From: Lama guanicoe
Lineage: Eukaryota
Assembly: GCA_013239625.1 (NCBI GenBank)
Contig: MU053304.1
Span: 3,100,001 to 3,128,569 of the forward strand
Length of the DNA: 28,569 nucleotides
Reading direction: 5' to 3'
Shown here: one piece after another, positions 1 to 28,569 of the stretch
How the letters are laid out: each line of letters opens with the position of its first letter
Position numbering within the stretch: the stretch's first letter is position 1
The notes under the pieces: generated by a model
What the model was told of the DNA's origin: nothing
Database searches by the model: none
The model's input: only the letters and a program-made list of their open reading frames with translations
Position numbers and translations under genes: made by a program

Positions 1-300
1 GCACATTAATAATTTTTCTGAAATAAAAATGCCCTGGAAATACCTGTGTGCTTGAAATCTAACCTTGAGGTTTCAGTCACAGGTGAAATCTAGCTATGTG
101 GCCCTGACCAAGTGACGAGTTATGACCCTCAAATCACAGAAAGGACAGGGGGACCAAAGGCTGGACACGGACAGTCAGGACACGTGTCTAGACCTGACTG
201 GGGATGCCCGAAGCCTCGCCTGCATTGCTAAGACCGCTGGCGTTTTGATCCCAGCCGTCGCCTACATCAAAGAAGCAATAAAGGCAAAACCATGAAAACC

Positions 301-400
301 TTCATTCACTCACTCACTCACTCACTTACTCACTCAGTAAAGCCTTGTTGGGCCTGTTGACCACGTTCCCCAGGCCCAGGACGGCTCTGGGAATACGGCA
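301..400 (-). repeat. (TCAC)n tract, probably an L2 3' tail
   Basis: ttcattcactcactcactca... followed by a degenerate L2-end-like sequence. Confidence 0.5.
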
Positions 401-466
401 TTACCAGCCACGGTGACGCATTCATCCAACCGCAAACCAGTCTCCAGAGAGACAGTGAACACCCGC

Positions 467-5445: not shown

Positions 5446-5630
5446 AAATAAACCACAAAGTCCTACTGTACAGCACAGGGAACTATATTCAGTATCTTAC
5501 AGTAGCCTATGATGAATAAGAATATGAAAAGGAATATATATATATATATATATATGTATTACTGAATCACTATGCTGTACACCAGAAATTAACACAACCT
5601 TATAAACCAACTATACTTCATTAACAAAAA
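5446..5630 (+). mobile_element. 5'-truncated L1 3' end with 14-bp TSD
   Basis: cctactgtacagcacagggaactatattc...ctatacttca plus A-tail; flanked by aatacagagaaata (5432-5445) and aatacaaagaaata (5631-5644). Confidence 0.85.
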
Positions 5631-5759
5631 AATACAAAGAAATACACATTATTCAGTTCTACTCACACCAGAGTTGACAAAAAGTTGACTCTAGGCTTCC
5701 TTCCAATCAAAGGCAGGCAGAGAGAGTTTTGAGACCTACTTAACAGTGTTCCCTTAGCA

Positions 5760-6245
5760 TTTTTGTTAATTTTGATTGAAACGTAGTCCATTTACAATGT
5801 TGTGTCAATTTCTACTGTACAGCACTTCAGTCATATAGGAGCATACATGTATTCGTTTTCATATTCTTTTCACCATAACTTACTACAAGATATTGAATAT
5901 AGTTCCCTATGCTATAGAGTATAAACTTGTTTATCTATTTTATATATAGTAGTTAGTATCTACAAATCTCGAACTTCCAAATTATCCCTTCCTACCCCCT
6001 TCCCCACTGGTAACCATAAGTTTGTTTTCTATGTCTGTGGGTCTGATTCTGTTTTATAAGTAAGTTCATTTGTCTTTTTTTTTTCCGATTCCACATATAA
6101 GTGATACATGGTTTTTTTTTTTCTCTTTCTGGCTTACTTCACTTAGAATGACAATCTCCAGGTCCAGCCATGATGCTGCAAATGGCATTATTTTATTCTT
6201 TTTATGGCTGAGTAGTATTCCATTGTATAAATATACCACAACTTC
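5760..6245 (-). mobile_element. L1 3' end (ORF2 C-terminal remnant plus 3'UTR)
   Basis: ORF 6066-6278(-) carries IMPFAASWLDLEIVILSEVSQKEK, the L1 ORF2 C-terminus; typical L1 3'UTR follows. Confidence 0.9.
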
Positions 6246-6399
6246 AGGCATACAAGACCTTAGAAGTTTTGTCACCAAAAGAAAAAAAAGTCAATAGTGA
6301 AAATATTCTTGGAGGAATTATTCAAATAAGAAGAGGAAAAGCTTGAGGAGAATTATGACACATCCAAGATAACATTGTGAGAAATGAAGTAGTTGGAGG

Positions 6400-6865: not shown

Positions 6866-6887
6866 TGATCCAAGTCCTTACAAGACA

Positions 6888-7035
6888 GGAAGGAAGGATG
6901 GAAGGAAGGAAGGAAGGAAGGAAGGAAGGAAGGAAGGAAGGAAGGAAGGAAGGAAGGAAAGAAAGAAAAGAAAGAAAAGGAAGGAAGGAAGGAAGGAAGG
7001 AAGGAAGGAAGGAAGGAAGGAAGGAAGGAAGAAAA
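6888..7035 (+). repeat. (GAAG)n compound microsatellite with a central (GAAA) interruption
   Basis: Directly visible, ~150 bp purine tract. Confidence 0.97.
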
Positions 7036-10899: not shown

Positions 10900-11715
10900 T
10901 TTTTTTCCTCTGAAAAAAATGGTGCAAAAATTCAAATATACAAAAATAGACAAACGGTGGAAAGTAAATTTCCCTCTCTTTCCTGTTCTTCAGCTCCCCC
11001 TCAATTCCCCTCCCTTGTCATTACCTTGAGTATCTTTCTAAAGGTATTCTGTGAGTGTATAGACACATACGATAGCAGAGTTTACTATTCTGTTCCTCAC
11101 TTTGATTTTCCTTTCTTTTCCTTTTCTAAAATTTATTTATTTATTTATTCATTCATTCACTCATTCTGGAGTCTAGTCAATTACAACGTGTCAACATCTG
11201 GTGTATAGCATAATGTTTCACTCATACATATGCATACGTATACTTGCTTTCATATTCCTTTTTATTATGGGTTACTACGAGATATTGACTATAGTTCCCT
11301 ATGCTATACAGAAGAAGTTTATTTTTTAATCTATTTTTTACATAGTAGTTAGTATTTTCACATCTCGAACTCCCAATTTATCCCTTCCCACTCCCTTTTC
11401 CCCCAGTAACCATAAGTTTGTTTTCTATGTCTGTGAGTCTGTTTCTGTTTTATAGATAAGTTCATTAGTGTCTTTTTTCTTTTCTTTGATTTTCTCATTG
11501 AAATTATCTGAAAGCACTACATAGGCAGCTGCTTCATTTTTGCTCATTGCTGCGTTTTATTCTTTGTCATCTGTATACTATAACTTGACTAAATAAATCT
11601 TCCTTGAATGGGTCTTTAAATGTTTCCAATTTTTTCCTACTACAAATAATGCAACAAATATCCTGGTACACACATCATTTTGCCCCTATAGGAGTATATC
11701 ACAGGATATGTAAAT
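10900..11715 (-). mobile_element. Ancient L1ME-like fragment interrupted by a younger L1
   Basis: gtttccaatttttt...tacaaataatgc...atatcctggtacaca; the old element continues on both sides of 11111-11483. Confidence 0.55.
11111..11483 (-). mobile_element. Young L1 3' end with 11-bp TSD
   Basis: Similar to 5760-6085; flanked by ctttgattttc at 11100-11110 and 11484-11494; A-tail decayed to (TTTA)/(TTCA) repeats. Confidence 0.85.
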
Positions 11716-14462: not shown

Positions 14463-14481
14463 TTTATTTTTGCATTTTATT
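14463..14481 (-). terminator. Tandem polyadenylation signals of gene 1
   Basis: AATAAA on the minus strand at 14476-14481 and 14463-14468, followed by a U-rich downstream tract (14421-14455); implied 3'UTR ~0.4 kb. Confidence 0.7.
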
Positions 14482-14852
14482 AAGAAATTTTTAGAACACC
14501 ACATAGAAATATCTCTACGGCCATGGACAGGACAGATCATTTATAGGAAAGACAAGAAGACAATGCATAGACAGAAAAGAAATTAAGGAAAAAGTGAAAA
14601 TCATTACCTCATTTTTCTGAGCTCAATAGTCAGGATGTTTGCCATCTTCTTTTCTTCATGGATGACGTTGAATAAAATAGCCATCGATGTACCTTAGAAA
14701 TGGAAATAGTCACTTAAATTCACAGCATGAGAACCAAAGAGGGAAGTGCAATGAAGCCCAGGTGACAGGGAGACAGCAGGGAAGACACAGAGGGATGGAG
14801 GGAAACGTCAGCGTTGGGAGCAGATTTCCCAGTAGAACCTGCAGACCGCCCC

Positions 14853-15179
14853 CTAGTGGCAGCACTGCCTCTTGCAGCACCTCTGCTGACAGCAGCCCTT
14901 CCCGCAGCCGCAGCCGCAGTCACACGAGTGGCGGCGGCAGGTGCGGCGGTAGCAGCAGACCACGGGGGTGTTGCAGCAGCAGCCGCAGCAGCCCCCACAG
15001 CAGCCGCAGCAGGAGCCGCCCCGGGAGCACCTGTACGAGGTGCAGCTGTCACAGCCGCCACAGCCACCGCCGCAGCCACCGCAGCCGCAGCCACCACCGC
15101 AGCCACCACAACCGCAGCCACCACCGCAGCCACCACAACCGCAGCCACCACCGCAGCCACCACAACCACAGCAGCCCAT
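14853..15179 (-). CDS. SCYGR: Small cysteine- and glycine-repeat-containing protein (SCYGR/KRTAP28-like keratin-associated protein), gene 1, 108 aa, intronless
   Basis: ORF MGCCGCGGCGGGC...NTPVVCCYRRTC...CGCGKGCCQQRCCKRQCCH; 39 Cys and 37 Gly of 108 aa. The MGCCGC start, TPVxCCxRRTC core and CGKGCCQQ tail match the SCYGR family as I recall it. Kozak cACCATGG, TATA-like box upstream, AATAAA pair downstream. Paralog number cannot be assigned. Confidence 0.9.
   Translation of the reverse strand: MGCCGCGGCGGGCGCGGCGGGCGCGGCGGGCGCGGCGGGCGGCDSCTSYRCSRGGSCCGCCGGCCGCCCNTPVVCCYRRTCRRHSCDCGCGCGKGCCQQRCCKRQCCH
15060..15167 (-). repeat. Coding 27-bp minisatellite, 4 units, encoding GCGGCGGGC
   Basis: Units 15141-15167, 15114-15140 and 15087-15113 are identical; unit 15060-15086 differs at 4 positions. 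Confidence 0.9.
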
Positions 15180-15265
15180 GGTGTCAGTAGAGAGGACTCA
15201 GGAGAGGGGAGGACGGAGACTCAGGAGGTGAGGAGGGTCTGATGCCGCCTTCTGCCCCAGGGGCC

Positions 15266-15273
15266 CTTAAATA
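15266..15273 (-). promoter_or_regulatory. TATA-like box (TATTTAAG) of gene 1; predicted TSS ~15243
   Basis: Lies 30 nt upstream of the GCATCAGAC initiator-like motif shared by all three copies. Confidence 0.75.
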
Positions 15274-15638
15274 CTGTCCCTCCTCTGCTGTAGCCCAATT
15301 GCCACGGAAGGATCTCACAGGACCTTCTATTTACTTCCTTCTTGAGAACCTTGAAATAACTTCCTATTTTTAGCAGAGCATCCTCCTTTGGGAACCTGGA
15401 GTTCTCTATTATGAATGATATACTTGTGTGTCATATCTTTAGTCCAGAACTAGGAAAGTGAAGGCTGAAGTGTAGGGAAGAGAAGGTCTCAGGGGCTCAG
15501 GATGTTGCCTGTATCTCAGACATGACCATGGTAGACGTTTCCTGGGTCTCTGGGCACTCAGCAGGGTTTCTGCATGGTGCTGGGCACCTGGAACGGAGAG
15601 CAGGGAGAGACCGGACAGCCTCGGGGTCAGGGAGAAAT

Positions 15639-15648
15639 AGATCAAAGG
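15639..15648 (+). promoter_or_regulatory. Candidate TCF/LEF1 binding site AGATCAAAGG
   Basis: Exact match to the optimal TCF/LEF consensus, between the divergent TSSs and ~400 bp upstream of gene 1. Confidence 0.5.
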
Positions 15649-16524
15649 AGGACATTTTCAGGCTTTCTTCTCTGGCTTTCAAAAGCCTAACTTATCAAGG
15701 AGATGCCAGTTGTCAACCAGGGACACCAAAGCCTTGGGAGCAGCACAGAGCCAGCAAAGCTGGGGCTTCTCCCCTCCAGAAGCTGCAGAGGGTGTCCCCA
15801 GGGGGACTGTGGGGTGGTCCCTCCTTGGGAGCTGTCTGGAGCTCCTGGCCTAGCCTGGCAGGCCTAAATTCTCAAGACAGTCAAGCAAGAACATATCCCT
15901 GTGGACCACTATTCACACCTGCGGGCTACCCGGGGCACAAAGAGGCATAATGACAGGTAGAGTCAGCCAAATGGAGACCAATCATTTCAAATAAACATTC
16001 CCCCTTAGCCATGGTCAGCCTGAAACATTAGTCTTGCCCATGGAGGCACGAGAGAAGGCCAGCCACCAGATGAAGTCTGTCTTGTTTTTGTTTACCAGTT
16101 ATTTAACAGACAAACAACAAACAGGAACTTCACTCTTGGCCGATAATTTAGGGGAAGTTACACAAAATTATATTTTTATCATTTGACATCACACAAATGT
16201 ATTCTATTTTTGTCCATGTTAATGATGAAGAAATTCTTCTTGTGAACAAAGTATTTCGGGGAGCCAGGGAAAGCAGAACTGAATTTAAAGGAGAGATGAA
16301 AAGCACATGTGGGGATGTCTGCTCTTTCCATTTGGGTTCCTGCTCTTTATTTATTCTTCCAAAAAGTTTCTATAACTTGGCGTGAATAATGAATACCAGT
16401 AGAGAGAAAAACAACCTTTTTTCTACCTAGCGATGCCTAAGAAGTGGACGTAGAAACAGGACTTTTACCTGGCTCTAGGTTTAGACTTTCATGGTTACAA
16501 GTAACTGAAGATTATTCTTAAATG

Positions 16525-16635
16525 TTGTAGGCATTTATTTAAACCAACAGCTGGCTAGTGAGCACTTACATCAGGCCAGGCACTATTCTAGACCCCGGGG
16601 CAAAACAGACATACACACTTACATTCTCATGGACA
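16525..16635 (-). mobile_element. L2 3' end fragment between the divergent genes
   Basis: tgagcacttacatcaggccaggcactattctag...attctcatgga. Confidence 0.5.
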
Positions 16636-16805
16636 CAAAGCTCTCAGAAGTGTGTTCTAACGCAAATATAGGTTTAAGAGACAGGATTTAGCACTATCAG
16701 CTGGCCAACAAGGAAGGACGTAAGAGGCCTCGTGAGATCGTTTATGGGAAGCGGGATAAACAACAAGGCACAGGCTGGGTCTCCAGGCTCAGCTCCTGAA
16801 GATGG

Positions 16806-16813
16806 TATATAAG
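16806..16813 (+). promoter_or_regulatory. TATA box (TATATAAG) of gene 2; predicted TSS ~16837
   Basis: Canonical TATA 31 nt before the A of gcATCAGAC and 95 nt before the ATG. Confidence 0.85.
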
Positions 16814-16900
16814 GGCGCCCCCTGGCAGAGGGCAGCATCAGACGTCCCTCACCTCCTGAGTCTCCGTCCTCCCCTCTCCTGAGTCCTCTCTGCTGACACT

Positions 16901-17194
16901 ATGGGCTGCTGTGGTTGTGGTGGCTGCGGTGGTGGCTGCGGCTGCGGTGGCTGCGGTGGTGGCTGTGGTGGCTGTGGTGGCTGTGACAGCTGCACCTCGT
17001 ACAGGTGCTCCCGGGGCGGCTCCTGCTGCGGCTGCTGTGGGGGCTGCTGCGGCTGCTGCTGCAACACCCCCGTGGTCTGCTGCTACCGCCGCACCTGCCG
17101 CCGCTACTCGTGTGACTGCGGCTGCGGGAAGGGCTACTGTCAGCAGAAGTGCTGCTGTCAGCAGAGGTGCTGCAAGAGGCAGTGCTGCCACTAG
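16901..17194 (+). CDS. SCYGR: SCYGR/KRTAP28-like keratin-associated protein, gene 2, 97 aa, intronless
   Basis: ORF MGCCGCGGCGGGCGCGG...NTPVVCCYRRTCRRYSCDCGCGKGYCQQKCCCQQRCCKRQCCH; 35 Cys and 26 Gly of 97 aa. Context ACTATGG, TATATAA at 16806, AATAAA at 17621. Confidence 0.9.
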   Translation: MGCCGCGGCGGGCGCGGCGGGCGGCGGCDSCTSYRCSRGGSCCGCCGGCCGCCCNTPVVCCYRRTCRRYSCDCGCGKGYCQQKCCCQQRCCKRQCCH

Positions 17195-17620
17195 GTCGCT
17201 GGCCTGGCCCCGTCCTGCCCAGGAGCCAGGAGGCCACACTCTCTTCTGCTGGTAAGACTGCTTTGCCCCCTTCCATCCGCTCCTTTCCCCTAACCCTCCT
17301 GTCACCGGCTTTTCCTCTCGGGCCTCCTGGGTCTTGTGCTTTGTCCTTCGGAGATCTTCCTTTGCCCACCCTCAGTGCAGATTCACCCAAACCACGCAAC
17401 ACCGTGTGCAACAAATACGCAACAAGGGACTGATGCTAAAAGATCACGGGGCAAAGCCAGGGCGCACGAGAGCCCTAATTTATGAATTAATCCTAGTTCA
17501 TATGCTGTTTGGCTTACTCTTTTATAAAGATTCAGGCCTGGATTTTGGTCGTTTTGGAGTTTTCTGCCTGTGCACAGTCTTTCCTACTGCTCTGTCTACA
17601 TTTGCTACTTCCCATTGCTC

Positions 17621-17626
17621 AATAAA
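17621..17626 (+). terminator. Polyadenylation signal of gene 2
   Basis: AATAAA followed by GU-rich TGCGTGTTTTGTC...TTTGTT at 17661-17685; implied 3'UTR ~0.45 kb. Confidence 0.75.
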
Positions 17627-18394
17627 ATGACTTAATCCACAATCACATCTCTTCATTAGCTGCGTGTTTTGTCAGTTCCTTTGTTAGTAGGGCGACCTCA
17701 GCACTGCGAATCCAGTTCTGGCCCTCCCCTCCCCCATCCCCCTGCAGCCGACCCCAGGGTGGGACCCTCTTCCAGAGCCCTTTATCCAAGGGGTGCACAG
17801 CCCCCTTTGCTGCTGCCCTGGGGGGTCTCCGTACTCACTCTCCCAAGGATTTTCCGGGGGAGGGATTGGTGATGGTGGTGGGTCTTTGTTTCTTTTGTAA
17901 AACCTAAGAACTGAAAAATGGGCCCTACAGGAAAGCAGAACGCCCGCAGCCCCTGTCCTGTGGTGCCCGGTGGTTTCCAAGGAGACCGGGAAGCGCCGGC
18001 CAGGGCGGCGAGCCTGAGCGCCGTGGATGATTCTGCGAGGCTCTCGTTGTCGCTGGAGTCCGTGGCCTTGCCTCCCACGGCTGTGTATTTTCTCTCTGCT
18101 TCTGTCAATTTTGTGCAATAAACCCACTGAGCAGACCTTGGGGAGGGGAGACCTACGCTGCCCAGCTGCTGATGGGGGCTTTGTTCAATTCGGCAGGCAG
18201 GAATGGGAGCTCCACTGTGCTGTCCGGGCCAAGCCCTAGTTTCCAGCCCAGCCCCCAGCAGGCAGCAGGGGCTCCTCTCCTTTGCCCACTGCTCCGCTCC
18301 CCAGTCCATTCAGAAAAGAAGGGGTGAGTGGTGAGCTCGCCTGGACCCCTCCTTCCACACATGGCTACTTCGGTGCCAGCTCTTCCAGGGGAGC

Positions 18395-19935: not shown

Positions 19936-20174
19936 TGTGAGGAGCGTTTGAACGCAGAGTGGGAACTAATCACAAAGCAAGTGGTCTCGAGCAGAACTCA
20001 GGAATGTCGCGACCAGCTTAGACCCGTGGGTGGCTATTAGACCAAGGGTGATCTTACCTGGACACGTGGGGAACAGGGCGAATGGGTCACTGGGTCACCC
20101 ACCGAGACGCTGATGATGAGCGCAGTGGCTGGCGTTGCCAGCGAGCAGCCTCCCGTTTGGTCCTCAGCAGTCTG

Positions 20175-20305
20175 GGAGGAGGTGCTAATATCATCACCCC
20201 ACTGTTTACTTTAGGAGATCAAGGCTGTGAGAGGAAGACTCCTGGGCATCACACGGTGGCAGCAGGATTCAAATCCACTCTGCTGGACCCCAAACCTCAC
20301 TTTCT
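20175..20305 (-). mobile_element. MIR fragment
   Basis: aggtgctaatatcatcacccc...gtggcagcaggattcaaatcc. Confidence 0.55.
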
Positions 20306-20571: not shown

Positions 20572-21110
20572 TTGTTTTATTTATTTATTCACTTATTTAT
20601 GTTTAATTTTTAATTGAAGCATAGTTGCTGTACAATATTATATTTGTTACAGGTGTACAACATAGTGATTCCCAATTTTTAAAAGTTATCCCTCCATTTA
20701 TAGTTATTGTAAAATATTGATCTATATTCCCCATGTTGTACAATATATCTTTGTAGGTTATTTTATTCACAATAGTTTGTACCTCTTAATCCCCTACCCC
20801 TGTCCGGTCCCTCTCCTTGTCTCTCCCCAGTAGTAGCCACTAGTTTGTTCTCTGTGAGTCTGCTTCTTTTTTGTTATATTCACTAGTTTGTAGTATTTTT
20901 TAGATTCCACGTATAAGTGATATCATACAATACTTATCTTCCTCTGTCTGACTTATCAGGAAGCAACCTAAGAGTCCATCAACAGATGAATGGATAAAGA
21001 AGATGTGGTATAAATATACAATGGAATACTGCTCAGGCATAAAAAAAGAATCAAATTTGCCATTCACAGCAACGTGGATGGACTTGGAGGACATTATGCT
21101 AAGAGAAATA
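20572..21110 (-). mobile_element. 5'-inverted (twin-primed) L1 insertion
   Basis: 20572-20956 is an L1 3' end on the minus strand; 20957-21110 is the adjacent upstream ORF2 segment on the plus strand; TSD-like aatcatggt (20563-20571) and aaccatggt (21111-21119). Confidence 0.85.
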
Positions 21111-22444: not shown

Positions 22445-22596
22445 GCTCTTGTTTTTTTGAAGTGTAGTTCATTTACAATCTTAGTTTCAGGTGTACAACA
22501 AAGCAATTCAGTTATACATAGACATACACATACGTACGTATATTTTCTTTTCAGATTCTTTTCCATTACATGTTATTACAAGATATTGAATAGAGT
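22445..22596 (-). mobile_element. Short L1 3' end with probable 9-bp TSD
   Basis: ttgaagtgtagttcatttacaat...ttacaagatattgaata; tcagggttt at 22436-22444 and 22597-22605. Confidence 0.75.
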
Positions 22597-22704
22597 TCAG
22601 GGTTTTAGCTCAGGTCTCGTCTCCCTCTGGAAACTGGGTCCTGTCCCTGTTCTCTCCTGAATAAGTCCTGTATTTTTTCTTACAATGTGTAGCCAGCCTT
22701 GAAA

Positions 22705-23269: not shown

Positions 23270-24314
23270 GTACATTTCTTTGTATCACCCATGCTGCCTG
23301 GCACGTAACGTGGGTTCGACAAATGTTTGTTGATTTGTTTGCTTTTGCTCAAGTGTTTACCTTTGGAAATAGAACTGGAAGCAGGAAGTTAATTGATAGA
23401 TGTGCTATGCAGTCTCCTATATTTAGATCAGCAACACCTGGTTATTTTTAGCTGGGATGCTTATGTGTCGGAGCCATGCTTTATGCAGGAATTTACTCTA
23501 CTGTCTAATGGGTTGCACATGTGAACGCCCTGTGGGGGTCCCAGTGACCTTCGTTGTACAAGTCGGCTGGTGGGGGTTTGGGATTATGGTCTATCCCCAT
23601 GGAGTAGAGCTGAGCTGATGGCCCCGTAGGTGGATGAATCTGAACACAGATAAACTTTGAATGAGTTTTGATCATTGCCCAATGTTCTTTTTTTTCCTTC
23701 TAATTTTGGTTAAAAAGTTCAAGAAAAGCAAATAACTCGTCAGACAGTATCTGTTTGGGGGTTAGTGTAGTCTTTGGGTAATTACTGGGATTCCTTCATT
23801 CTTTTGCAACGGAAAGTGTTGTCAGGGTTAAATATGATGGTTCAGGATCTATGGATGATCTCAGTTTGCTGTGTCTTTATCTCTTTAAACTCTAGCTGCC
23901 TTTTCTCAGTGTAACCAATCCTTTCCATCACCTCTTTGGCTCCGTGATGTGTCCCTAACAGACACCTGTTTTGTCGCCACGTCCCTCAACTTCTGGTGTT
24001 TCTTCTAGGGCGGTGTACAGAAGCTCTTTGCCCTTTCCTGGATGAAGGAAAGAGAGACAGATAACTTTTTTTGTAATGTAAGTGTTCTCTCATTTTTTTC
24101 ACTCACAAAATATAGGGGAAATGCAGTTATAATGTTCAAGATGAAGAGAAATAATTCAATTTCCTTTTAGACAAAAAGAAACCTTCATTTGTCGCTAATG
24201 CATTCCATATCAGGTCTACCCAGAGCAGATCTTCTGAATGAAGGTGTGTTAATGTCTCTCTCATTTTCTGAATACCTGGTGTGGAAGGTGGCTGCGAGGA
24301 TGAGGGAACATAAC

Positions 24315-25038
24315 ACAGCATTTCTCCACGCTTTTTTCAACTTGGCTTTCCACAAACAACCTTTGAGCACATGTATACATACAGGAATTTGCATTTTAGC
24401 CTAATGGTACGGAGGGCTGGTACAGAAATGGTGAGTGGTAACAAGTATGTGAGGGGAAGTTATAAAGTTGAAGAGCTTATTAAGCCAAAAAAAGTAATTG
24501 GAAAGCCATTTGGGTAATCACAACTTTTAATCAGTTCTACTCCCATGGTGTCGTTTACATTTAGGCAGTGGCTGTCCCAACTTGAACTTTGATTCTGCCG
24601 GTCGGGAGATGCTGACTTGTCTGTGGAGGCTTAGAGAAACGGTGAAGTGGGATTGCCAGGGGTCCCTTAAGATGAAGGCTGAGGAGCATTCTAACGAAAA
24701 CAAAAGCCAGTAAAGTCATTTTAAAGGAATACAGCATTTCTCCATGCTTTTCTCAACTTGGCTTTCCACAAACAACCTGTGAGTACACGTATACCAAAAA
24801 AAGTAATTGGAAAGTCATTTGGGTAATCACAACTTTTAATCAATTCTACTCCCATGATGTCGTTTACACTTAGGCAGTGACTGTCCCAACTTGAACTTTG
24901 ATTCTGCCAGTCGGGAGATGCTGACTTGTCTGTTGAGGCTTAGAGAAATGGTGAAGTGGGATTGCCAGGGGTCCCTTGAGATGAAGACTGAGGAGCATTC
25001 TAACGAAAACAAAAGCCAGTAAAGTCATTTTAAAGGAA
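24315..25038 (+). repeat. Local tandem duplication (copy A 24315-24729, copy B 24731-25038)
   Basis: About 15 mismatches in 308 aligned bp by manual count; 24379-24485 is absent from copy B. Confidence 0.95.
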
Positions 25039-26520: not shown

Positions 26521-28491
26521 TCCTTCCATAATTGAGCCTGAAACCCGGATAAGAGCAGTTACTTTCCATTCAAGGCAGGGGCAGGAGGTATGATTCTGGG
26601 GCAACAGCTTTGGTAGCATTCCCACTGACTTCCAAACTGCCAAAGCATCTTCAACGTGGTGCCCAAAGATTCCTACCTTTTGATTCCACCTGTGTTCCCA
26701 GGCTCTGCTCTGGCTGTTCTTAGCCTCCCACGCCTCCCCCAAGTCCCATCCTGTAAGTCCCCCCAGTAGGTCTACGGCAGGTGCTGCCTGACCACGCCTC
26801 ACGTTTTCCTGTCTCCAGTCTTTACTGAAGCTCTTACGCAGAAGACCTTCTCTTAGTCTTCCCAATTCCCCTTCTCTCACTTATACTCAAAATCAACCTT
26901 TCTCCCCCCATACCTCTAAGAAAGTCAATTTATAGGGTTATTCTGATTCTTGTCCTGTTGTATTAGAATTTTTTTAACATGCATTTTTTATCAGACTGAG
27001 AGCCTGTGGATTCATCTTGTTTTGTTCTCACAGTGCCCTGCAGAGTGACTTCCTTATAAGACAAGGCTAATTCAAGAGCTATTTATGAAGCTGAATACAT
27101 TGCCCCCTCCTCGGTTTACATGATGGGAAAGGATTAAGGTGCATGAAAGCAGAAGCTCATGTGCCCTTTTAATAAAAACAGACAAATCCTGAAGATGAGA
27201 GTGTTGGGAAGAACCGTATACTGGTTGAAGGCATGAAAGAAATCTTGCTTATGGCATTTTCCAGTACAGTCATTTAAGCAAATTTACTGTCTATCTGTGC
27301 TCTGTTACAGGACAGGAAAACTACCAAAGGAAATCATTACATTCCAAAATTTCAGCCAAAAAGTATCAACAGAAATGAATTGGCTGTTTTACGCAGGGGT
27401 TATCCTAGACGTGTAATGGCTAATGCCAGGTACGTGCAGGTGGGGTTCAGAGAGCTGTGCAGCGGGACCAGAGCACTAAACCACTTTATTCACTTTCTGG
27501 TTTGATAAATATTACACAGAAGTCATCTTCAAGACTTTTTTTTTTTTTAACAGTAACTAAAAACTTACCTGAAGAGAGCCCAGGGCTAAAGGCCAGATCG
27601 TAAGATTATTCCAGGGGAGTTGCAAGCTCCTCCCACTCAGGGTCCTGCAGGGGGCTGGGCGGACACCTGGCTTTCCTCAGCTGTGTGCTGCTCGGGCAGG
27701 CTCAGGGGACCTACCAAGAGCTTTTTTATATTCTGAGAAAGGTCAACAGAACCTGACTGCCTTCACTGCTTACCTCTAACAGGAAAGGGTGGTCTGTGCA
27801 GGGACAGACAATTAAGAGCAACCATTTCAAGTAAGCGTTCCACAGGGGACTGGTCCCTGACCACCCTGGAGACACATGGCTGTTGGAAATGTCTTTAGGT
27901 TGTCCTTTCTTAAGAGGCTGCTGATAGCAGAAGTGTCCTTGAATTTGGCAGGTGGCTTGGGGACGTTCTGTCCAGGATGTGCTTCTATCATCCAGCTCAA
28001 CGCAGAGGATGCTCCAGAGTAGCCCTGATAACACAGTATCCTCTCTCCTCTGAATCAGAGCCCTGACCGACGTGACAGGATGAGGAATTACCCAGGGATG
28101 AAATAACACTTTCCCCTTCGACTTTCAGAATACTCTCCTCTATCTAAAGTGATGTTTCCCAGCTTAGTAAAAGGTTATAAATGGTGTAGGAATGAAAAAA
28201 TCTTTGTCCTGGGCTGAGATGGCTGAGAGATGTAAAAGTGGCCAAGGGAAATTCTGACCCGCTCAGACGCTGACAATCACCAGAAAAGAAAAGGGGGTTA
28301 ATAGTCATTTCCTGTTCTGTTTTAAAGAGGGCTTTAAATAGACAAGTGAGAGCTAAATTTAGCAAATATTTTAAGTGGGAAGGATCCATGAAGGAAGTGC
28401 ACAAAGGCCATGTGAGGTTCTGCTGTGGATACTTGCATCAGCAACAGGGAAGTGGCCTTGAGCCTTAGGCCAATCCTGTGCCCAGAGTTGC

Positions 28492-28499
28492 TATATAAG
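28492..28499 (+). promoter_or_regulatory. TATA box (TATATAAG) of gene 3; predicted TSS ~28523
   Basis: Same motif and spacing as gene 2; a CCAAT also occurs at 28470-28474. Confidence 0.8.
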
Positions 28500-28522
28500 C
28501 CCCCACCCCAGCAGGAGGCGGC

Positions 28523-28569
28523 ATCAGACGTCCCTCACCTCCTGAGTCTCCGTCCTCCCCTCTCCTGAG
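28523..28569 (+). other. 5'UTR of a third SCYGR-like gene, truncated by the window end (ATG expected about 17 nt beyond it)
   Basis: 47 nt identical to 16837-16883 (gene 2 5'UTR), preceded by TATATAA at the same 31-nt spacing. Confidence 0.85.

What the first reader, a model, noticed from the sequence alone, without database searches (positions are those of the whole stretch)
14853..17194. Head-to-head pair of SCYGR/KRTAP28-like ultra-high-sulfur hair protein genes
Seen: two intact intronless genes (~36% Cys) transcribed divergently, TSSs ~1.6 kb apart, each with its own TATA and polyA signal. Known: SCYGR/KRTAP28 is a poorly characterised hair-associated family, and such short low-complexity genes are easily missed by annotation. 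Inference: the shared DSCTSYRCSRGGS and RRHSCD/RRYSCD segments and the GCGGCGGGC unit differ from human SCYGRs as I recall them, so this may be a lineage-specific or unannotated subfamily relevant to fibre traits.
Basis: partly seen in the sequence, partly recalled or inferred. Interest (0 to 1): 0.7.

Follow-up and report, generated by a model that had tools for sequence, protein, structure and literature searches.

The report
Ordinary SCYGR hair-protein gene pair
These are two real, intact copies of a known but little-studied family of tiny cysteine- and glycine-rich mammalian genes thought to help cross-link hair, sitting back to back as they do in many other mammals, so they are ordinary family members rather than a new subfamily.

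Summary
In detail: two intronless ORFs (108 and 97 aa, both 36.1% Cys), divergent, inferred start sites ~1.6 kb apart, each with TATA-like box and AATAAA. Family: SCYGR/KRTAP28. Atlas top clusters are SCYGR (0.96-0.97); the only HMMER hit among 1.84 billion proteins is musk-deer SCYGR1, colinear beyond composition (0 of 2000 shuffles); gene A's core is 48/63 identical to human SCYGR6 (by eye). The novelty case is weak: close head-to-head SCYGR pairs occur in human and 7 of 11 mammals seen; the GCGGCGGGC unit is in 7 of 9 human SCYGRs; near-identical coding regions with unalignable 3' flanks show gene conversion, which by itself yields species-specific cores. What remains: intact, possibly unannotated copies in a probably camelid genome, where a 2014 survey counted no intact alpaca KRTAP28. 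Expression and flanking-gene synteny were not tested. No earlier SCYGR note in this scan.

The parts
14853..15179 (-). Gene A CDS, SCYGR/KRTAP28-type protein, 108 aa: Gly/Cys repeat (res 1-43) plus Cys-rich core
15180..15243 (-). Gene A 5'UTR (start site inferred from TATA spacing)
   Evidence: 56 of 61 nt identical to gene B 5'UTR; start site not measured
15267..15273 (-). Gene A TATA-like box (TATTTAA variant)
15312..15340 (-). Gene A copy of a shared upstream module (AAGGAAG-N7-8-AGGYC-NN-GTGAGRT)
   Evidence: pattern was built from the three copies
14463..14481 (-). Gene A candidate polyadenylation signals (two AATAAA)
   Evidence: not tested against chance
16901..17194 (+). Gene B CDS, SCYGR/KRTAP28-type protein, 97 aa
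16837..16900 (+). Gene B 5'UTR (start site inferred)
16806..16812 (+). Gene B TATA box (TATATAA)
16710..16738 (+). Gene B copy of the shared upstream module
17621..17626 (+). Gene B candidate polyadenylation signal, followed by a GT-rich stretch
16979..17104 (+). 126-nt stretch identical to gene A 15056..14931: core of the homogenised (converted) tract
15274..16805 (.). Divergent intergenic region between the two TATA boxes (candidate shared regulatory region)
   Evidence: direct from sequence; no MRE consensus, LEF1- and HOXC13-like hexamers not above window rate
28391..28569 (+). Third family copy (gene C): upstream module 28391-28418, TATA 28492-28498, 5'UTR cut by window end; CDS outside the window, intactness unknown
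   Evidence: (D9, I7)

Best explanation
The two genes, and a third starting at the window end, are members of the mammalian SCYGR (KRTAP28, KRTAP cluster 4) family. SHOWN here: intact single-exon ORFs, SCYGR homology, and homogenisation of TATA-to-stop regions between copies whose 3' flanks no longer align. INFERRED: the head-to-head pair is an old unit of the cluster kept alike by gene conversion across the inverted repeat, which also drives the species-specific core. INFERRED from family knowledge: each gene is transcribed from its own TATA promoter in differentiating hair-shaft keratinocytes, probably co-regulated through the shared upstream module and the 1.5-kb spacer; the ~10 kDa basic, leucine-free proteins fill the matrix between keratin filaments, the Gly/Cys repeat acting as flexible spacer and the CC-rich core forming disulfide cross-links with keratin head/tail cysteines and other KAPs. 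Membership about 0.95; gene conversion about 0.85; hair-matrix function about 0.8.
For: Atlas: top three clusters SCYGR9-like, 6, 8 at 0.96-0.97, first Pfam-bearing keratin cluster 0.85; repeat-free core of A 0.92 vs 0.84 (same source). HMMER over 1.84 billion: 1 hit, E 5.4e-4, named SCYGR1 of Moschus moschiferus; cores align 37 of 54, 15 non-Cys/Gly identities, z 8-9, 0 of 2000 composition-keeping shuffles reach it. A core vs human SCYGR6 48 of 63, 18 of 31 non-C/G residues (by eye). Composition nearest subfamily 28 for A (4.0 vs 7.4 for KRTAP17). Conversion: 3 synonymous and 1 replacement difference in 83 alignable codons, pS 0.056, 126-nt exact run; 3'UTRs no better than random window controls (39 of 275 reach the score). 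GC3 79-82%. Concerted evolution of high-Cys KRTAPs is published (PMC2528016, PMC4180150). Expression of relatives: SCYGR8 marks hair medulla with KRTAPs in human Visium HD (10.1101/2025.09.09.675235); mouse Krtap28-10 falls with other Krtaps in skin (PMC12661662).
Against: No expression or peptide evidence for these copies was obtained. Flanking-gene synteny could not be tested: no genome held, no convincing Pfam hit in 126 of the window's other stop-free frames of 62 aa or more (2 weak hits below cut-off). Gene B's composition is nearly equidistant from KRTAP28 and KRTAP17 (8.4 vs 8.6). Pfam finds nothing, two word-index searches were blank, BLASTP with composition adjustment did not align B to the musk-deer protein, and the Atlas 'recognition' value (1434) was in the range where high scores are weak evidence. 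Keratin binding has not been shown for any SCYGR in the papers I saw; Wu 2008 says subfamily 28 had no functional or expression data. B-C promoter alignment did not pick the module above controls (47 of 267).
Confidence: 0.82

Rival explanations
1. A distinct, lineage-restricted SCYGR subfamily with a functionally changed core (shorter, proline lost, more Arg), separate from ordinary SCYGR orthologues in the same genome.
For: The segment after the repeat differs from both human and musk deer, which agree with each other in keeping TTCRCY and CCPCC; exact sequences are absent from the collections.
Against: The rest of the core is colinear (48 of 63 with human SCYGR6); within-species homogenisation predicts exactly such shared changes; layout is the conserved one. 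Only two coding copies of this genome were visible.
Confidence: 0.1
2. The pair is a recent inverted duplication of one transcription unit rather than an old pair under conversion.
For: pS only 0.056 between A and B.
Against: Similarity stops at the stop codon and fades above the TATA box; 3'UTRs are unalignable, which a recent duplication including flanks would not give; close divergent pairs exist in human and 7 of 11 mammals seen.
Confidence: 0.1
3. Another Cys/Gly-rich family: KRTAP17, KRTAP5, LCE or metallothionein.
For: Gene B composition close to KRTAP17; Cys content suits all four.
Against: KRTAP17 has at most one copy in all 22 genomes tabulated, here there are three; KRTAP5 averages 19% Ser vs 5% here; no Pfam keratin, LCE or metallothionein match at E<=1; no MRE consensus in the spacer, 0 seen vs 0.6 expected, weak; best hits are SCYGR. 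Multi-exon structure of metallothioneins is recalled.
Confidence: 0.03
4. SCYGR genes, but silent here or acting mainly outside the hair shaft (other keratinised tissue, or metal/thiol binding).
For: No human short-read expression data at annotation; SCYGR10 undetected in GTEx and polymorphic for a stop; A's TATA is a variant.
Against: Both ORFs intact with frame-keeping indels; hair-bulb and skin expression of relatives; bulk atlases under-sample anagen follicles (general knowledge).
Confidence: 0.12

Closest known systems
Human SCYGR1-8 and SCYGR10, chr2:227.39-227.75 Mb (GENCODE; PMC6886504 Supplemental Data S2) = KRTAP subfamily 28 / cluster 4 of Wu 2008 and Khan 2014
   Same: 85-120 aa single-exon genes; MGCCGC start, Gly/Cys repeat, colinear core (TPV-CC-RRTC, GKGCCQQ, terminal QCC); two divergent pairs (SCYGR3/4, 2658 nt; SCYGR6/7, 3578 nt ATG to ATG); a -/+/+ order like SCYGR6/7/8; invariant core within the species.
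   Different: Core segment after the repeat rewritten and 3 residues shorter, CCPCC proline lost, two-residue insertion before H/Y-SC, C-terminal His; pair is tighter (1722 nt). One-to-one orthology cannot be assigned (GENCODE says the same).
Moschus moschiferus SCYGR1 (UniRef100_A0A8C6D1P9, P0001)
   Same: 37 of 54 core residues; shares PVVCC and the two-residue insertion after RRTC.
   Different: Keeps the human-like TTCRCY and CCPCC; shorter repeat and tail.
Ovine/caprine 'KRTAP28-1' (PMC6523819, PMC7074440)
   Same: Name only.
   Different: A high-sulphur gene at the KRTAP25-1 position on sheep/goat chromosome 1 (abstracts); its fibre-diameter associations do not transfer to SCYGR genes.
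KRTAP17-1 and KRTAP5 families
   Same: Ultra-high-sulfur, Gly-rich, intronless.
   Different: KRTAP17 single-copy; KRTAP5 Ser-rich (19%); neither is the best sequence match.

Membership tests
SCYGR/KRTAP28 | Single-exon ORF of about 85-120 aa | tested here: met
   108 and 97 aa uninterrupted; human range 85-120
SCYGR/KRTAP28 | Composition: Cys ~39%, Gly ~34%, Leu ~0, Pro ~2, Ser ~6 | tested here: met
   Nearest of 10 subfamily profiles compared for both genes, clearly for A (4.0), narrowly for B (8.4 vs 8.6)
SCYGR/KRTAP28 | Colinear core homologous to named SCYGR proteins beyond composition | tested here: met
   48 of 63 with human SCYGR6 by eye
SCYGR/KRTAP28 | Multi-copy tandem cluster with mixed orientation | tested here: met
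   Three copies in 14 kb, -/+/+
SCYGR/KRTAP28 | Conserved position near SLC19A3, CCL20, DAW1, SPHKAP | not testable with these tools
   No genome held; no flanking coding exon found in window; neighbourhood as listed for cattle in PMC13185250
KRTAP (functional class) | Expression in hair-shaft keratinocytes, protein in fibre | not tested
   No read or peptide data obtained for these copies; only relatives
KRTAP (functional class) | Disulfide cross-linking to keratin filaments | not testable with these tools
   Family-level model from PMC8657448 and PMC2528016
KRTAP17 | Single copy per genome | tested here: not met
   At most 1 in 22 of 22 genomes; three copies here
KRTAP5 | Ser about 19% | tested here: not met
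   4.6% and 5.2%
Metallothionein / LCE | Match to the family profile | tested here: not met
   0 Pfam families at E<=1 for both proteins; low complexity lowers the power of this test

The most novel reading that the evidence does not exclude
In camelids the whole SCYGR cluster has been overwritten by gene conversion with a lineage-specific, proline-less, Arg-richer core; these intact and so far unannotated genes (a 2014 survey counted no intact alpaca KRTAP28) are co-driven from a shared GGAA-containing promoter module, encode medulla/matrix proteins missing from fibre proteome databases, and their repeat-length variation contributes to fibre medullation or diameter.
Probability: 0.15. Interest if true: 0.5.

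Novelty: new member of a known kind. Interest (0 to 1): 0.2.

Why it matters
As it stands it is an annotation gain: at least two intact SCYGR/KRTAP28 genes and a third copy in a probably camelid genome, with gene-specific peptides and unique 3'UTRs that make expression testable. If the genome is alpaca-type, it corrects the published count of 2 genes, both pseudogenes, taken from a 2.5x assembly (PMC4180150), and weakens that paper's reading of a reduced alpaca repertoire for this subfamily. The family's function is still untested, so any fibre link would be useful to breeders, but nothing here is surprising to a KRTAP specialist.

Tried and rejected
Pfam on both proteins: nothing. Exact look-up of both: absent. 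Word-index homologue searches with gene B whole and core: blank; uninformative, since a true relative is in the same collection. BLASTP with composition adjustment failed on the same pair; replaced by shuffled-control alignment. Own-genome search: none held. Search for flanking coding exons: 126 stop-free frames of 62 aa or more, excluding the two genes and the AAGG repeat, gave 2 weak sub-threshold Pfam hits, rejected as chance; shorter exons were not covered. 3'UTR 'similarity' of 71% in global alignments (z 4.1 and 2.4 vs base shuffles) rejected after the window-control test. LEF1, HOXC13 and MRE consensus scans of the spacer: not above window rate. No structure prediction was run: a lone low-complexity sequence would not give a usable model. 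Papers on camelid KRTAPs read by passage (PMC6598621; 10.1101/2025.08.28.672513) showed no SCYGR/KRTAP28 gene; 10.1101/2020.11.15.383638 and PMC9967486 (one table row) added nothing.

Full report
OBSERVATION. The window holds two uninterrupted ORFs at the stated places: A, 15179..14853 (-), 108 aa, and B, 16901..17194 (+), 97 aa, both 36.1% Cys, with no Leu, 10-11 basic and 2 acidic residues, about 10 kDa, pI 8.3-8.5. Each has a TATA-like box, a shared pyrimidine-rich 5'UTR, a start codon with A at -3 and G at +4, and AATAAA 370-430 nt past the stop. Start sites inferred from TATA spacing lie about 1.6 kb apart. The repeat finder shows a third TATA plus 5'UTR at 28486-28569 (+), cut by the window end; it is 71 of 81 nt identical to B's and 66 of 80 to A's. 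No further MGCCG start occurs in the six frames. So this is a piece of a cluster of at least three, order -/+/+.

FAMILY. Pfam, exact look-up and two word-index searches were blank, as is common for such low-complexity proteins. The ESM Atlas put three SCYGR-named clusters first (0.97, 0.96, 0.96) and the first Pfam keratin cluster at 0.85; the repeat-free core of A gave 0.92 against 0.84. The two count as one source, and the recognition value was low. HMMER over 1.84 billion representatives gave 1 hit (E 5.4e-4), named SCYGR1 of musk deer. Its core aligns with both genes at 37 of 54, and 0 of 2000 composition-keeping shuffles reach the score. Nine human SCYGR sequences were read in Supplemental Data S2 of PMC6886504. 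By eye, A's 65-residue core matches SCYGR6 at 48 of 63 aligned positions, including 18 of its 31 residues that are neither Cys nor Gly. Against 10 of the subfamily composition profiles in Table 2 of PMC2528016, subfamily 28 is nearest for A (4.0, next KRTAP17 at 7.4) and barely nearest for B (8.4 vs 8.6). KRTAP17 is excluded by copy number (at most 1 in 22 genomes), KRTAP5 by serine.

IS THE LAYOUT SPECIAL? No. Human has two divergent pairs among 9 genes (SCYGR3/4, 2658 nt; SCYGR6/7, 3578 nt). I read 90 of the 197 KRTAP28 rows in the supplement of PMC4180150, covering 11 species, three only in part. Divergent pairs within 3.6 kb occur in 7 of 11: gorilla (2667, 2824), orangutan (2614), rabbit (2093, pseudogenes), pig (3152, 2634), horse (2391), panda (1869, 2613), hedgehog (2162). 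Gibbon and bat have pairs at about 4.8-4.9 kb; alpaca and elephant rows are too few. The 1722 nt here is the tightest of these.

IS THE SEQUENCE SPECIAL? Partly, and for a known reason. The GCGGCGGGC unit is in 7 of 9 human proteins, and both genes share their first 14 residues with SCYGR6 and SCYGR8. The segment after the repeat is different: 7 of 12 identical, then 3 residues missing, and the CCPCC proline that human and musk deer keep is Gly. PVVCC and the two-residue insertion after RRTC are shared with musk deer. All 9 human genes share one invariant 36-residue core; A and B share another. Between A and B there are 3 synonymous and 1 replacement difference in 83 alignable codons (pS 0.056), a 126-nt exact run, 56 of 61 in the 5'UTR, whereas the 3'UTRs align no better than random window stretches (39 of 275 controls reach the score). 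If synonymous sites had drifted by an assumed 20-35%, so few changes would have probability 3e-3 to 5e-7 (codon bias would soften this). That is an old pair with homogenised coding regions, the pattern that PMC2528016 and PMC4180150 describe for high-cysteine KRTAPs. Species-specific cores follow from it and do not make a subfamily.

PROMOTERS. A module AAGGAAG-N7-8-AGGYC-NN-GTGAGRT lies 39-74 nt above each of the three TATA boxes and nowhere else in the window. The pattern was built from these copies. Local alignment supports it for A-C (0 of 274 controls) and A-B (2 of 270) but not B-C (47 of 267). It holds a GGAA core (ETS-like, recalled); function is untested.

HOW IT WORKS. [quoted passage not shown] Support from relatives: SCYGR8 with KRTAPs marks the medulla in human hair-bulb spatial data; mouse Krtap28-10 drops with nine other Krtap genes in a skin comparison. 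Against or open: no expression data for these copies; subfamily 28 had no functional data in 2008; no human short-read expression at annotation.

ORGANISM AND ANNOTATION. L1-like 3' ends in the window look camelid-type (recalled, untested), and two unchecked earlier notes on this genome call it alpaca-type or camelid. The region is held at 0.86-0.90 by 15 runs of four coded organisms, so it is not an assembly artefact of one data set, though one holder may be the source. Khan 2014 lists alpaca KRTAP28 as 2 genes, both pseudogenes, from a 2.5x assembly; their lengths, 342 and 231 nt, match neither A (327) nor B (294). Whether current RefSeq or Ensembl annotate A and B I could not check. Searches for 'SCYGR' (14 papers), 'KRTAP28' (30), 'small cysteine and glycine' (9) and numbered KRTAP28 names (4) listed no paper on camelid SCYGR genes; the library lacks most subscription journals, the sequence files of PMC2528016 could not be read, and bioRxiv supplements were closed.

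WHAT I SAW OF EACH PAPER. PMC6886504: passages and supplement rows. PMC4180150: passages, part 1 of section 8, 90 supplement rows. PMC2528016: passages and section 8. PMC8657448, PMC11576641, PMC13204572, PMC6598621, PMC12661662, PMC9967486, PMC13185250 and the three bioRxiv preprints: passages only. PMC6523819, PMC7074440, PMC2745387: search listing with start of abstract.

VERDICT. Real genes, right family, ordinary layout, expected kind of divergence. New members of a known kind; interest 0.2.

Noticed in passing
window 28391-28569 (+): Third SCYGR copy: upstream module, TATA and 5'UTR; coding region lies just beyond the window, about 11.7 kb from gene B's ATG.
   Followed up: partly
window 24312-25038: Recent local duplication: 245-nt pair at 96% (24485/24794) and 67-nt pair at 91% (24312/24728); no Pfam hit above cut-off.
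   Followed up: no
window 14687-15190 (+) and 16899-17276 (-): Antisense frames of 167 and 125 aa over the two genes; shadows of the Gly/Cys codon repeat.
   Followed up: partly
window 15061-15172: Gene A has about four near-perfect 27-nt units, 45 nt more repeat than B: a likely length-polymorphic site.
   Followed up: no
window 6887-7031: AAGG microsatellite, 36.5 units.
   Followed up: no
window 5455-6250, 11200-11480, 20595-21100, 22470-22600: Related interspersed repeats (D5, D8, D10, D13, I10, I16) resembling L1 3' ends of camelid type (recalled).
   Followed up: no
window 151-450, 17851-18150, 19951-20250: Small CpG-richer patches (o/e 0.56-0.66) with no coding match found.
   Followed up: partly
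Human NCL lies a few Mb distal to the SCYGR cluster (recalled); if that locus sits at NCL it would support synteny and mean the window runs opposite to the human orientation.
   Followed up: no
literature: Name clash: ovine/caprine KRTAP28-1 is not a SCYGR gene. Also, PMC4180150 Table 1 counts both alpaca KRTAP28 genes as pseudogenes while its supplement labels neither with 'p'.
   Followed up: partly
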